Source: Escherichia coli
GTDB lineage: Bacteria; Pseudomonadota; Gammaproteobacteria; Enterobacterales; Enterobacteriaceae
Assembly (NCBI RefSeq): GCF_003334385.1
Contig: NZ_QOWN01000097.1
Direction: 5' to 3' (one strand)
Length of the DNA: 3,000 bases
Shown here piece after piece: positions 1-3,000 of this stretch. The position numbers and the translations under genes are program-made. How positions within the stretch are numbered: the stretch's first letter is position 1; each line of letters opens with the position of its first letter. The notes under the pieces were generated by a model that worked only from the letters and a program-made list of their open reading frames with translations, did no database searches and was not told the DNA's origin.

Positions 1-3000
1 ACGCTGGCGCGGCTGTGGGGGGCGCTGCCGCCGGATATCCGGTTAAGCCCGCATCTTTACCTGGCGACCAACAGCGCACAGGGGCCGTGGTGGATACTGG
101 GGTGGTCTGAGCGGGTGCCGGGTGCTGAGGACGTACTGCCAGCGCCGCTGCCGCCGTACCGGGTGCTTACCGGGATGGCGGACCGCTTCGGGCGGACGCT
201 GACGTACCGGCGTGAGGCCGCCGGTGACCTGGCCGGGGAAATCACCGGCGTGACGGACGGTGCCGGGCGGGAGTTCCGTCTGGTGCTGACCACGCAGGCG
301 CAGCGTGCGGAAGAGGCCCGCACCTCTTCGCTATCTTCTTCTGACAGTTCCCGCCCTCTCTCAGCCTCAGCGTTCCCCGACACACTGCCCGGTACCGAAT
401 ACGGCCCCGACAGGGGTATCCGCCTTTCGGCGGTGTGGCTGATGCACGACCCGGCATACCCGGAGAGCCTGCCCGCTGCGCCACTGGTGCGGTACACGTA
501 TACGGAAGCCGGTGAACTGCTGGCGGTATATGACCGCAGCAATACGCAGGTGCGCGCTTTCACGTATGACGCGCAGCACCCGGGCCGGATGGTGGCGCAC
601 CGTTACGCGGGAAGGCCGGAGATGCGCTACCGCTACGACGATACGGGGCGGGTGGTGGAGCAACTGAACCCGGCAGGGTTAAGCTACCGCTATCTTTATG
701 AGCAGGACCGCATCACCGTCACCGACAGCCTGAACCGGCGTGAGGTGCTGCATACAGAAGGCGGGGCCGGGCTGAAACGGGTGGTGAAAAAAGAACTGGC
801 GGACGGCAGCGTCACGCGCAGCGGGTATGACGCGGCAGGAAGGCTCACGGCGCAGACGGACGCGGCGGGACGGAGGACAGAGTACGGTCTGAATGTGGTG
901 TCCGGCGATATCACGGACATCACCACACCGGACGGGCGGGAGACGAAATTTTACTATAACGACGGGAACCAGCTGACGGCGGTGGTGTACCCGGACGGGC
1001 TGGAGAGCCGCCGGGAATATGATGAACCGGGCAGGCTGGTATCGGAGACATCGCGCAGCGGGGAGACAGTACGCTACCGCTACGATGACGCGCACAGTGA
1101 GTTACCGGCGACGACAACGGATGCGACGGGCAGCACCCGGCAGATGACGTGGAGCCGCTACGGGCAGTTGCTGGCGTTCACTGACTGCTCGGGCTACCAG
1201 ACCCGCTATGAATACGACCGCTTCGGCCAGATGACGGCGGTCCACCGCGAGGAAGGCATCAGCCTTTACCGCCGCTATGACAACCGTGGCCGGTTAACCT
1301 CGGTGAAAGACGCACAGGGCCGTGAAACGCGGTATGAATACAACGCCGCAGGCGACCTGACTGCCGTTATCACCCCGGACGGCAACCGGAGCGAGACACA
1401 GTACGATGCGTGGGGAAAGGCGGTCAGCACCACGCAGGGCGGGCTGACGCGCAGTATGGAGTACGATGCTGCCGGACGTGTCATCAGCCTGACCAACGAG
1501 AACGGCAGCCACAGCGTCTTCAGTTACGATGCGCTGGACCGGCTGGTACAGCAGGGCGGCTTTGACGGGCGGACGCAACGTTATCATTATGACCTGACCG
1601 GAAAACTCACACAGAGTGAGGATGAGGGACTTGTCATCCTCTGGTACTACGATGAATCGGACCGTATCACTCACCGCACGGTGAACGGCGAACCGGCAGA
1701 GCAGTGGCAGTATGATGGCCACGGCTGGCTGACAGACATCAGCCACCTGAGCGAAGGCCACCGTGTTGCCGTCCACTATGGCTATGACGATAAAGGCCGC
1801 CTGACCGGCGAATGCCAGACGGTGGAGAACCCGGAGACGGGGGAACTGCTGTGGCAGCATGAGACGAAACACGCATACAACGAGCAGGGGCTGGCAAACC
1901 GCGTCACGCCGGACAGCCTGCCGCCGGTGGAGTGGCTGACGTATGGCAGCGGTTACCTGGCGGGAATGAAGCTGGGCGGGACGCCGCTGGTCGAGTATAC
2001 GCGGGACAGGCTGCACCGTGAGACGGTGCGCAGCTTCGGCAGCATGGCAGGCAGTAATGCCGCATACGAACTGACCAGCACATACACCCCCGCAGGCCAG
2101 TTACAGAGCCAGCACCTGAACAGCCTGGTATATGACCGTGACTACGGGTGGAGTGACAACGGCGACCTGGTGCGCATCAGCGGCCCGCGACAGACGCGGG
2201 AATACGGCTACAGCGCCACGGGCAGGCTGGAGAGTGTGCGCACCCTCGCACCAGACCTGGACATCCGCATCCCGTATGCCACGGACCCGGCGGGCAACCG
2301 GCTGCCGGACCCGGAGCTGCACCCGGACAGTACACTCACAGTGTGGCCGGATAACCGCATCGCGGAGGATGCGCACTATGTCTACCGCCACGATGAATAC
2401 GGCAGGCTGACGGAGAAGACGGACCGCATCCCGGCGGGTGTGATACGGACGGACGACGAGCGGACCCACCACTACCACTACGACAGCCAGCACCGCCTGG
2501 TGTTCTACACGCGGATACAGCATGGCGAGCCACTGGTCGAGAGCCGCTACCTCTACGACCCGCTGGGACGGCGAATGGCAAAACGGGTCTGGCGGCGGGA
2601 GCGTGACCTGACGGGGTGGATGTCGCTGTCGCGTAAACCGGAGGTGACGTGGTATGGCTGGGACGGAGACAGGCTGACGACGGTGCAGACTGACACCACA
2701 CGTATCCAGACGGTATACGAGCCGGGAAGCTTCACGCCGCTCATCCGGGTCGAGACAGAGAACGGCGAGCGGGAAAAAGCGCAGCGGCGCAGCCTGGCAG
2801 AGACGCTCCAGCAGGAAGGGAGTGAGAACGGCCACGGCGTGGTGTTCCCGGCTGAACTGGTGCGGCTGCTGGACAGGCTGGAGGAAGAAATCCGGGCAGA
2901 CCGCGTGAGCAGTGAAAGCCGGGCGTGGCTTGCGCAGTGCGGGCTGACGGTGGAGCAACTGGCCAGACAGGTGGAGCCGGAATACACACCGGCGCGAAAA
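1..3000 (+). CDS. Rhs family protein (RHS/YD-repeat polymorphic toxin core), internal fragment; both the start and the stop lie outside the window
   Basis: Frame +1 is uninterrupted by stop codons for all 1000 codons (my manual translation, line by line). The translation carries many copies of the Rhs/YD motif (Y-x-Y-D-x-x-G-R-L/V), e.g. [13 protein letters not shown] (nt 625-663), [12 protein letters not shown] (1207-1242), [13 protein letters not shown] (1267-1305), [10 protein letters not shown] (1582-1611), [12 protein letters not shown] (1777-1812), [14 protein letters not shown] (2377-2418), [12 protein letters not shown] (2548-2583). The window starts [20 protein letters not shown] and ends ...[15 protein letters not shown], with [26 protein letters not shown] at 2737-2814. 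GC content is high with GC-rich third positions, as known for Rhs cores. Paralog (rhsA/B/C/D-like) cannot be determined from the core alone, so the gene symbol is left empty. Confidence 0.95.
490..2694 (+). repeat. YD-repeat (RHS repeat) array at the protein level within the Rhs CDS; about 25-28 degenerate units of roughly 20-25 residues, not a nucleotide tandem repeat
   Basis: Recurring Y-x-Y-D / YD-x-x-G-R-L motifs in frame +1, at approximately aa 164-178, 189, 209-221, 229-238, 276-286, 318-326, 340-346, 359-362, 403-414, 423-435, 445-453, 468-473, 488-496, 509-516, 528-537, 549-556, 571-577, 593-604, 709-726, 735-745, 793-806, 825-836, 850-861 and 885-898. Unit boundaries are approximate and read by eye. 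Confidence 0.75.

What the first reader, a model, noticed from the sequence alone, without database searches (positions are those of the whole stretch)
1..3000. One gene fills the whole window and is invisible in the supplied ORF track
Frame +1 has zero stop codons over 1000 codons and is full of YD-repeat motifs, so the true gene is longer than 3 kb and extends past both edges. Every ORF in the six-frame track (all minus-strand ORFs and the + strand 2132..2410 ORF) is out of frame or antisense to it. An ORF caller that requires a stop inside the window would misannotate this region as several small hypothetical genes.
Basis: seen in the sequence. Interest (0 to 1): 0.5.

Follow-up and report, generated by a model that had tools for sequence, protein, structure and literature searches.

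The report
Interior of E. coli rhsD gene
The window is an internal 3 kb piece of the long-known E. coli gene rhsD, which encodes the YD-repeat shell of an Rhs toxin; it is missing from the ORF list only because that list omits reading frames that run off the window, so this is an ordinary, already annotated gene.

Summary
Frame +1 is open for all 1000 codons, where about 28 stops would be expected, and it is rich in YD repeats. Every listed ORF is antisense or out of frame.

The window corresponds to codons 154-1153 of the 1426-codon E. coli rhsD gene, in phase. It differs by one synonymous base from strain SCU-104, and RefSeq annotates the gene as "rhs element protein RhsD" in the matching genomes listed.

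The translation passes NCBIfam's curated RHS_core equivalog cut-off on its own (2173 bits against 2000). It matches solved Rhs cocoon structures (Tse5, E = 1e-121).

The parts outside the window complete the classical Rhs architecture:
- a PAAR-like N-terminus and a DUF6531 plug;
- a DPMG-x18-DPMGL autoprotease motif;
- an AT-rich DUF4329 (Tox-JAB-2) toxin tip;
- ybbC and an orphan tip downstream.

The long antisense ORFs follow from sense codon usage. Frame -1 stops are the reverse complements of the rare TTA, CTA and TCA codons. These ORFs match no protein family, and the longest is broken in paralogues. Substitutions fall mainly on position 3 of frame +1.

The gene's "invisibility" is a rule of the ORF list, not biology. 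Verdict: already known, low interest. The one small curiosity is a lineage-specific, probably helical segment of about 80 residues (nt 2758-3000) that solved Rhs structures lack.

The parts
1..3000 (+). Internal part of the rhsD coding sequence, frame +1, codons 154-1153 of 1426. No start or stop codon lies inside the window.
   Evidence: Frame +1 is open throughout. The window is 2999/3000 identical to annotated rhsD of E. coli SCU-104 and in phase with it (offset 459 nt, which is 153 codons). NF041261 RHS_core scores 2173.5 bits against a cut-off of 2000. Substitutions against paralogues are concentrated at codon position 3.
1..408 (+). Remainder of the clade-specific N-terminal region (RhsD residues 154-289), lying between the DUF6531 plug (upstream of the window) and the region alignable to solved Rhs shells.
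   Evidence: DUF6531 maps to RhsD 46-123, outside the window. Alignments to solved structures start at RhsD 290-312. The four-domain description is from Jackson et al. 2009 (PMC2935791). The boundary is approximate.
322..369 (+). Ser-rich linker [16 protein letters not shown] (RhsD 261-276), which varies by insertion or deletion between Rhs paralogues.
   Evidence: In the protein alignment of RhsD, RhsA and the O157 paralogue, this stretch is replaced or shortened in RhsA-type cores while the flanks are conserved.
409..2757 (+). YD-repeat (RHS repeat) region that forms the wall of the beta-cocoon shell (RhsD 290-1072).
   Evidence: Pfam RHS_repeat hits lie between window residues 167 and 808. 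TIGR01643 gives 6 stretches. Matches to solved Rhs cocoons: Tse5 8cp6_B, E = 1e-121, over RhsD 290-924; RhsA 7q97, E = 1.4e-85, over RhsD 306-1072.
2758..3000 (+). Lineage-specific charged segment, probably alpha-helical (RhsD 1073-1153), inserted between the last shell strand ([13 protein letters not shown]) and the C-terminal RHS core plug.
   Evidence: Tse5 has 23 residues at this point and S. bongori Rhs has 8. The segment alone has no PDB match. Homologues were found only in E. coli, Shigella and Citrobacter Rhs fragments. It is about 70% conserved in RhsA. AF2 predicts five helices and gives its only pLDDT values of 70-83 here, but the model as a whole is poor.

Best explanation
The window is the middle 3 kb of rhsD, one of the multi-copy Rhs (rearrangement hot spot) genes of Escherichia coli. 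It encodes most of the conserved, GC-rich 'core'.

Shown here: the window covers the rest of the N-terminal clade region, the YD-repeat region, and an E. coli-type segment of about 80 residues just before the C-terminal plug.

Inferred by homology to solved and tested Rhs effectors (Tse5, P. protegens RhsA): the YD repeats fold into a closed beta-cocoon. The cocoon is plugged at one end by DUF6531 and at the other by the RHS-associated core, an aspartyl autoprotease. That protease cuts after DPMGL (residue 1258) and leaves the 168-residue DUF4329/Tox-JAB-2 toxin tip enclosed in the cocoon. The short PAAR-like N-terminus would mount the protein on a VgrG spike so that a type VI secretion system can fire it into neighbouring bacteria. 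The producer would be protected by the small downstream gene ybbC.

The gene is absent from the ORF track only because an ORF with no stop inside the window is not listed. The antisense ORFs are by-products of the gene's GC-rich codon usage.
For: Identity:
- The window is 2999/3000 identical to annotated rhsD, and the one difference is synonymous (ACC/ACG at nt 723). It is in phase as codons 154-1153.
- 1235 records match at 99% or more.
- The closest copy lies in the canonical ybbP-rhsD-ybbC-orphan-mnmH context.

Family:
- NF041261 RHS_core scores 2173.5 bits for the window and 2787.3 for the full protein, against a cut-off of 2000. TIGR01643 gives 6 stretches and TIGR03696 matches 1181-1258.
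- Pfam finds RHS_repeat, DUF6531 (46-123), RHS PF03527 and DUF4329.
- DPMG-x18-DPMGL lies at 1232-1258. Paralogue identity falls from 76-90% to 8-28% directly after it.
- GC is 64% in the core, 36.5% in the tip and 30.6% in ybbC. This matches the published description of Rhs elements (PMC2935791).

Fold and mechanism by homology:
- Tse5 8cp6 matches at E = 1e-121 and RhsA 7q97 at 1.4e-85. Tc toxin TcC and teneurins match more weakly.
- Cocoon, plug domains, the aspartyl dyad and the requirement for cleavage are documented in PMC8765631 and PMC10684867.

Coding frame:
- Differences from rhsA by codon position are 152/139/397, and from the O157 paralogue 25/30/108.

Delivery:
- A 94%-identical core gene in O157:H7 lies directly downstream of a T6SS vgrG.
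Against: - The window's own flanks are unknown. Start, stop, autoprotease motif, toxin tip and immunity gene are inferred from a genome that differs by one base within the window.
- The PAAR-like N-terminus matches Pfam PAAR only weakly (E = 0.12 and 1.2).
- rhsD itself is not next to vgrG.
- The EHEC in-silico paper states it is unclear which VgrG, if any, carries the orphan rhsA-D proteins (PMC7216683).
- From my own knowledge, E. coli K-12 carries rhsD but has no T6SS. Delivery, toxicity of the RhsD tip and immunity by YbbC are therefore untested for this gene.
- ybbC and the tip match no NCBIfam or PADLOC model.
Confidence: 0.95

Rival explanations
1. The long minus-strand ORFs (2101..2958, 285 aa; 1294..2016, 240 aa; 679..1095, 138 aa) or the + strand ORF 2132..2410 are real genes. 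They would either replace the frame +1 reading or overlap it.
For: Frame -1 has only 8 stops in 1000 codons and open runs of up to 299 codons. The 1294..2016 stretch stays open in rhsA and in the O157 paralogue.
Against: - Frame -1 stops are by construction the reverse complements of sense TTA, CTA and TCA codons. These are rare here (5, 1 and 2), and the ORF ends at 367, 679, 1102, 1294 and 2101 coincide exactly with them.
- None of the 7 ORFs tested matches an NCBIfam model even at E <= 1.
- The longest ORF is interrupted in paralogues, at window position 2629 in rhsA-type genes and at 2251 and 2317 in O157.
- Substitutions pile up on sense position 3, which is antisense position 1, so the antisense peptides are not conserved.
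- RefSeq annotates only rhsD at this place.
Confidence: 0.01
2. The window comes from another member of the rhsD/E core subfamily, such as a vgrG-linked Rhs gene or a recombinant, and not from the rhsD locus itself.
For: E. coli genomes hold a median of 6 matching places. Cores 94-97% identical and named only 'RHS element core protein' lie at other loci, one of them next to vgrG in O157:H7. The flanks of the window are not available.
Against: The 25 best-ranked hits, at 99.9% identity or above, are all annotated rhsD, as are the spread-sampled hits down to 99.2%. The best one differs by a single synonymous base and lies in the ybbP-rhsD-ybbC context. The non-rhsD-locus paralogue examined (O157:H7, L003) differs at about 6% of positions. 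The function would be the same in either case.
Confidence: 0.03
3. The gene is intact in sequence but is not a working secreted weapon in its host. It would be silent, or undeliverable for lack of a T6SS, and kept mainly as a recombination substrate or as an intracellular toxin-antitoxin-like module.
For: - rhsD has no adjacent vgrG, and the PAAR match is weak.
- The region upstream of rhsD is 28% GC. From my own knowledge, AT-rich DNA of this kind is typically silenced by H-NS in E. coli.
- Rhs loci were discovered as recombination hot spots (PMC3150448).
- A Salmonella rhs element was reported to act as a type II toxin-antitoxin module (PMC7043789 abstract).
- It is unclear which VgrG, if any, carries the orphan RhsA-D proteins.
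Against: - The reading frame is intact over the 1426 codons of the near-identical annotated copy and over the 1000 codons of the window itself.
- Substitutions against paralogues fall mainly at third codon positions, so the encoded protein is conserved.
- All motifs needed for autoprocessing are present.
- Close paralogues are vgrG-linked.
Confidence: 0.2

Closest known systems
E. coli RhsD (rhs element protein RhsD; NCBIfam NF041261 RHS element core protein; rhsDE subfamily of Hill and colleagues)
   Same: The DNA is essentially identical: 2999/3000 to strain SCU-104 and 2996/3000 to the K-12 derivative DH1. The reading frame and repeat content are the same, and the whole-core model is matched above its curated cut-off.
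   Different: There is one synonymous base difference (nt 723) from the closest complete genome. Only codons 154-1153 are present in the window.
Pseudomonas aeruginosa Tse5 (PDB 8cp6) and P. protegens RhsA (PDB 7q97), structurally solved T6SS Rhs effectors
   Same: They share the YD-repeat shell (E = 1e-121 and 1.4e-85), the DUF6531 N-terminal plug, the C-terminal aspartyl-protease plug with a DPxG-x18/19-DPxG motif, and a variable toxin after the cleavage site. Like Tse5, RhsD has only a short PAAR-like N-terminus.
   Different: The toxin tip differs: DUF4329/Tox-JAB-2 here, against a pore-forming toxin (Tse5) or a predicted nuclease (RhsA). RhsD has no prePAAR or transmembrane region. It carries an extra segment of about 60-80 residues (1073-1153) before the C-terminal plug that these structures lack. 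Secretion and cleavage have not been shown for RhsD.
E. coli RhsA/B/C (rhsABCF subfamily)
   Same: The architecture is the same, including the insertion at 1073-1153. The first 50 residues are 94% identical. The same DPxG-x18-DPxGL boundary is followed by an unrelated tip.
   Different: Across the window they are about 77% identical at both DNA and protein level. There is an indel in the Ser-rich linker. The tips, immunity genes and chromosomal loci differ (selA-yibF-rhsA-yibA).
Tc toxin TcC subunits (YenC2, TccC3) and metazoan teneurins
   Same: They have a YD-repeat cocoon and a conserved C-terminal Rhs core region. In TcC the cargo is cleaved by the same aspartyl protease.
   Different: The sequence matches are far weaker (E = 1e-6 to 1e-27) and mostly confined to the core plug or a few repeats. 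Tc cocoons need a TcB partner and a beta-propeller gate. Teneurins are eukaryotic, uncleaved scaffolds (PMC8765631).

Membership tests
Rhs / YD-repeat polymorphic toxin (enterobacterial RHS element core protein) | Multiple YD (RHS) repeats | tested here: met
   Pfam PF05593 gives 8 hits at E <= 0.001 and 7 weaker ones. TIGR01643 scores 162.7 bits over 6 stretches against a cut-off of 15.8. The YD dipeptide occurs 18 times against 4.5 expected.
Rhs / YD-repeat polymorphic toxin (enterobacterial RHS element core protein) | End-to-end match to the curated RHS_core equivalog model above its cut-off | tested here: met
   NF041261 scores 2173.5 bits for the window alone (model positions 154-1156 of 1261). 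The full protein of the near-identical copy scores 2787.3 bits. The cut-off is 2000.
Rhs / YD-repeat polymorphic toxin (enterobacterial RHS element core protein) | Hyperconserved core end with DPxG-(18)-DPxG / PxxxxDPxGL (aspartyl autoprotease and cleavage site) | tested here: met
   This lies outside the window. In the near-identical annotated gene, [27 protein letters not shown] occupies 1232-1258 and TIGR03696 matches 1181-1258 at 82 bits. The motif definitions come from PMC2935791, PMC3150448 and PMC10684867.
Rhs / YD-repeat polymorphic toxin (enterobacterial RHS element core protein) | Variable C-terminal tip, unrelated between paralogues, beginning right after DPxGL | tested here: met
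   Identity to RhsA and to the O157 paralogue drops from 76-90% to 8-28% after residue 1258. Tip lengths are 130-168 aa. The RhsD tip is DUF4329 (E = 2.5e-37), which corresponds to Tox-JAB-2, and has HTH at 1356-1358.
Rhs / YD-repeat polymorphic toxin (enterobacterial RHS element core protein) | GC-rich core and AT-rich tip | tested here: met
   The window is 64.3% GC, the tip 36.5%, ybbC 30.6%, and the flanking housekeeping genes 54-57%.
Rhs / YD-repeat polymorphic toxin (enterobacterial RHS element core protein) | Small cognate immunity gene directly downstream, and orphan tip cassettes | tested here: inconclusive
   ybbC (122 aa) starts 40 nt after rhsD. An orphan core-end plus a different tip, with its own DPxGL, follows it. 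Immunity function was not tested, and ybbC matches no NCBIfam or PADLOC family.
Rhs / YD-repeat polymorphic toxin (enterobacterial RHS element core protein) | Closed beta-cocoon fold that encloses the toxin | tested here: met
   This was tested only by sequence homology to solved cocoons: Tse5 at 1e-121, RhsA at 1.4e-85, Tse15 and S. bongori Rhs. No full model of RhsD was built. Encapsulation of the tip cannot be tested here.
Rhs / YD-repeat polymorphic toxin (enterobacterial RHS element core protein) | Autoproteolytic release of the tip | not testable with these tools
   The motif and both aspartates are present. Cleavage has been shown only for homologues.
T6SS-delivered PAAR-Rhs effector | N-terminal PAAR or PAAR-like domain that binds VgrG | tested here: inconclusive
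   Pfam PAAR_motif gives only fragmentary matches, at residues 2-20 (E = 0.12) and 9-29 (E = 1.2). Tse5 has a comparably short 'PAAR-like' N-terminus. This region lies outside the window.
T6SS-delivered PAAR-Rhs effector | Genetic linkage to vgrG or a T6SS, and T6SS-dependent export | tested here: inconclusive
   There is no vgrG at the rhsD locus. A 94%-identical paralogue in O157:H7 lies directly downstream of vgrG. The literature calls rhsA-D 'orphan' genes with an unknown carrier. Export cannot be tested here.
rhsD specifically (as opposed to other rhs paralogues) | Near-identity to rhsD and the ybbP-rhsD-ybbC chromosomal context | tested here: met
   Identity is met: 2999/3000, and the 25 best-ranked hits at 99.9% or above are all named rhsD. 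The context is seen only in the matching genomes, because the window carries no flanks.
Tc toxin TcC subunit / teneurin | TcB partner with a beta-propeller gate (Tc toxins), or a eukaryotic transmembrane scaffold with FN-plug and NHL domains (teneurins) | not tested
   Both were considered only as distant relatives. Their matches are weak (1e-6 to 1e-27) and partial. The window is not filed under either family.

The most novel reading that the evidence does not exclude
The conserved, probably helical segment of about 80 residues at the 3' end of the window (RhsD 1073-1153) is absent from every solved Rhs cocoon. It was found only in E. coli, Shigella and Citrobacter Rhs cores. It might be a functional module not yet described. 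It could be an internal element that contacts or retains the enclosed toxin, or an adaptor surface that lets the 'orphan' RhsA-D proteins use a VgrG encoded elsewhere. The alternative is that it is a neutral loop.
Probability: 0.12. Interest if true: 0.3.

Novelty: already known. Interest (0 to 1): 0.05.

Why it matters
For biology it matters little. rhsD has been known since the work of Hill and colleagues (reviewed in PMC2935791), it is annotated in thousands of genomes, and the Rhs cocoon mechanism has been solved in close homologues.

The practical lesson is methodological.
- A window-limited ORF list that requires a stop codon hides any gene longer than the window.
- In GC-rich genes, that list fills with long antisense ORFs that follow mechanically from codon usage.
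- A scan should therefore always check for stop-free frames that span the window before it interprets small ORFs.
- Very short contigs of this multi-copy gene do end up in databases as 'hypothetical protein, partial'.

Tried and rejected
- Antisense or out-of-frame genes. This reading was rejected. ORF ends coincide with rare sense TTA and TCA codons. There are no family hits at E <= 1. The longest ORF is broken in paralogues, and substitutions sit on sense position 3.
- Structured RNA. An Rfam scan at E <= 1 gave only a chance-level snoRNA hit (19.6 bits against a gathering score of 47).
- DNA-level tandem repeats. TRF found none at score >= 30. The short dispersed direct repeats are YD-repeat codons such as CGCTACCGCTACGAYGA.
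- Internal promoters and terminators. Counts were at shuffle level: 1 against 0.4 and 2 against 1.3.
- Chi sites, as a basis for 'hot spot' behaviour. There are none in the window.
- Anti-phage defence role for the tip, ybbC or the orphan fragment. PADLOC gave no hits.
- Exact string match of the window in the best-hit genome. It failed because of one synonymous mismatch. The '100.0%' is rounded.
- AF2 model of RhsD 1036-1258 from an 8-sequence alignment. The model is poor overall (mean pLDDT 46.6), so I used it only for the secondary structure of the insertion. It cannot show whether the segment lies inside or outside the cocoon.
- Pfam scan of the full 1426-aa protein.
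Full report
OBSERVATION

Frame +1 of the window translates into 1000 codons without a stop. The other five frames carry 8 to 43 stops. The base composition (64.3% GC) predicts about 28 stops per 1000 codons, so the chance of none is about 5e-13. In 2000 shuffles the lowest count in frame 1 was 11.

GC by codon position in frame +1 is 0.66 / 0.49 / 0.78, which is a coding-type periodicity.

The translation holds 18 YD dipeptides against 4.5 expected. Eleven sites fit a relaxed YxYDxxGxL pattern, and several lie about 21 residues apart.

The 24 ORFs of at least 40 aa in the mechanical list are all antisense or out of frame. The + strand ORFs starting at 305, 512, 1019 and 2132 are in frame +2, and the one at 1410 is in frame +3. 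The frame +1 ORF is not listed because the tool leaves out ORFs that run off either end of the source.

IDENTITY

A megablast search against 5,426 complete E. coli genomes finds the window in 3,872 of them, with a median of 6 places per genome. In 1,235 records the best place is at least 99% identical. The 25 best-ranked hits, all at 99.9% or above, are annotated 'rhsD: rhs element protein RhsD'.

The closest copy is in strain SCU-104. It differs at one base (nt 723, ACC against ACG, both Thr). The K-12 derivative DH1 differs at four bases, one of which changes an amino acid.

In SCU-104 the gene is a 4281-nt CDS of 1426 codons. The window starts 459 nt into it, so window frame +1 is the annotated frame and the window spans codons 154-1153. 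The context there is ybbA-ybbP-rhsD-ybbC, followed by an orphan Rhs core-end fragment, several small ORFs and mnmH. DH1 shows the same ybbP-rhsD-ybbC-orphan arrangement over the stretch fetched.

FAMILY TESTS

The window translation alone scores 2173.5 bits on NCBIfam NF041261 (RHS element core protein, equivalog, cut-off 2000). It aligns to model positions 154-1156 of 1261. It scores 162.7 bits on TIGR01643, the YD-repeat model. Pfam RHS_repeat gives 8 hits at E <= 0.001 and 7 weaker ones.

The full protein of the near-identical copy adds these features:
- weak PAAR-like matches at residues 2-29;
- DUF6531 at 46-123 (E = 1e-18);
- PF03527 'RHS protein' at 1155-1190;
- TIGR03696, the Rhs-associated core, at 1181-1258;
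- DUF4329 at about 1292-1411 (E = 2.5e-37).

The hyperconserved motif DPMG-x18-DPMGL lies at 1232-1258. Identity to RhsA-type and O157 paralogues is 66-100% per 50-residue block up to that point and 0-28% after it. Tips of 130-168 residues are unrelated to one another.

GC content is 64% in the core, 52% at the core end, 36.5% in the tip and 30.6% in ybbC. All of this is the textbook Rhs element as summarised by Jackson et al. 2009 (PMC2935791) and Poole et al. 2011 (PMC3150448).

WHICH STRAND AND FRAME IS REAL

Against rhsA (77% identical) the window differs at 152, 139 and 397 sites in codon positions 1, 2 and 3. Against the O157 paralogue (94%) the counts are 25, 30 and 108. Substitutions thus fall mainly on the third position of frame +1, so the protein read in that frame is conserved.

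Frame -1 looks unusually open, with 8 stops and runs of up to 299 codons. Its stops are necessarily the reverse complements of in-frame sense TTA, CTA and TCA codons. These are rare in this gene: 5, 1 and 2, compared with 67 CTG and 35 AGC. The low-coordinate ends of the listed ORFs at 367, 679, 1102, 1294 and 2101 fall exactly on those codons.

The seven largest alternative ORFs hit no NCBIfam model at E <= 1. The longest, 2101..2958, is interrupted in the paralogues. These ORFs are by-products of sense codon usage.

OTHER FEATURES LOOKED FOR

Nothing reaches significance in Rfam. There are no tandem DNA repeats. Promoter-like and terminator-like sites occur at shuffle frequency. There is no Chi site. 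The short dispersed direct repeats are the repeat codons themselves.

HOW IT WORKS

What is shown here is that the window encodes three things:
- the remainder of the clade-specific N-terminal region (nt 1-408), including a Ser-rich, indel-variable linker at nt 322-369;
- the YD-repeat region (nt 409-2757);
- a lineage-specific segment (nt 2758-3000).

The mechanism is inferred by homology. RhsD matches solved T6SS Rhs effectors strongly: Tse5 8cp6 at E = 1e-121, P. protegens RhsA 7q97 at 1.4e-85, and also Tse15, S. bongori Rhs and V. parahaemolyticus Rhs. It matches Tc toxin TcC and teneurins weakly.

In those proteins the YD repeats spiral into a closed cocoon. An N-terminal plug (DUF6531 in Tse5) and the C-terminal Rhs core close its two ends. 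The two aspartates of DPxG-x18/19-DPxG form an autoprotease that cuts off the toxin, which stays enclosed until delivery. A PAAR or PAAR-like N-terminus mounts the effector on VgrG. Cleavage is required for killing (PMC8765631; PMC10684867).

RhsD has every one of these sequence elements. Like Tse5, it has only a short PAAR-like N-terminus. Its tip is DUF4329, which Zhang et al. 2012 classify as Tox-JAB-2 with an H[ST]H motif and suggest may act as a nuclease (PMC3482391). RhsD has HTH at 1356-1358.

Several steps have not been shown for RhsD:
- autocleavage;
- toxicity of the tip;
- immunity by YbbC;
- export.

The rhsD locus has no adjacent vgrG. A 94%-identical core gene in O157:H7 does lie directly downstream of vgrG. 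An in-silico study of EHEC notes that it is unclear which VgrG, if any, carries the orphan RhsA-D proteins (PMC7216683). From my own knowledge, K-12 has rhsD but no T6SS, so in some hosts the gene may be undeliverable.

A SMALL CURIOSITY

RhsD residues 1073-1153 (nt 2758-3000) lie between the last shell strand ([13 protein letters not shown]) and the C-terminal plug. Tse5 has 23 residues at this point and S. bongori Rhs has 8.

The segment alone matches nothing in the PDB. In the 5.8-billion-protein collection it matches only Rhs fragments from E. coli, Shigella and Citrobacter. It is about 70% conserved between RhsD-type and RhsA-type cores.

An AF2 run on a shallow 8-sequence alignment gave a poor model (mean pLDDT 46.6). 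It predicts five helices in this segment, which is also the only part reaching pLDDT 70-83. Whether the segment faces the lumen or the outside of the cocoon cannot be told from this model. The curated RHS_core model already includes it, so it is not a new sequence. I found no description of it in the structural papers I read, but I did not search for it specifically.

VERDICT

The feature is the interior of a well-known, correctly annotated gene. Its absence from the ORF track is a property of that track. Novelty: already known. Interest: low.

Noticed in passing
window 2758-3000 (RhsD residues 1073-1153): A charged, probably alpha-helical segment of about 80 residues lies between the last YD-shell strand and the C-terminal Rhs core plug. 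Solved Rhs cocoons have no counterpart: Tse5 has 23 residues here and S. bongori Rhs has 8. It was found only in E. coli, Shigella and Citrobacter Rhs sequences and is about 70% conserved in RhsA.
   Followed up: partly
window 322-369 (RhsD residues 261-276): The Ser-rich linker [16 protein letters not shown] sits in a spot that varies by insertion or deletion between Rhs paralogues. RhsA-type cores have a shorter, different sequence, while both flanks are conserved.
   Followed up: partly
window, minus strand, frame -1 (ORFs 367..663, 679..1095, 1102..1245, 1294..2016, 2101..2958): The antisense frame has only 8 stops in 1000 codons. Each is the reverse complement of a rare sense TTA, CTA or TCA codon, so the long antisense ORFs follow mechanically from GC-rich codon usage.
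   Followed up: yes
window 723: The window differs from its best match among the 5,426 complete E. coli genomes searched by at least one base. That difference is synonymous (ACC here, ACG in strain SCU-104). It differs from the K-12 derivative DH1 at four bases, so the source is a close relative of these strains, not one of them.
   Followed up: partly
L003 1-6244 (E. coli O157:H7 Z1813): A 94%-identical Rhs core gene with a different tip lies directly downstream of a T6SS vgrG gene and is followed by two small ORFs and IS remnants. The rhsD locus itself has no vgrG.
   Followed up: no
L001 10254-10940: An orphan Rhs cassette lies downstream of ybbC. It has the last ~86 residues of a core with its own DPIGL...DPLGL motif, then a different tip. 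It is annotated as a pseudogene missing its N-terminus. This fits the C-terminal displacement model of Jackson et al. 2009.
   Followed up: partly
L001 5112-5541: The 430-nt intergenic region upstream of rhsD is only 28% GC. It sits next to a 64% GC core, and the tip and ybbC are 31-37% GC. These sharp compositional steps are typical of Rhs elements.
   Followed up: no
proteins P0001-P0048: Many database entries for this part of Rhs are tiny fragments on 200-430 bp contigs, named 'hypothetical protein, partial'. This suggests assemblies break at this multi-copy gene. One 99%-identical fragment (P0003) comes from a eukaryotic protein set, which probably reflects bacterial contamination.
   Followed up: no
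L001 5542-5700 (RhsD residues 1-50, upstream of the window): RhsD has N47-P48 at the start of its DUF6531 match (residues 46-123). Tse5 is cleaved N-terminally at K47|P48 at the start of its DUF6531 plug (PMC10684867). This hints at an equivalent N-terminal processing site. The two sequences were not aligned directly.
   Followed up: no
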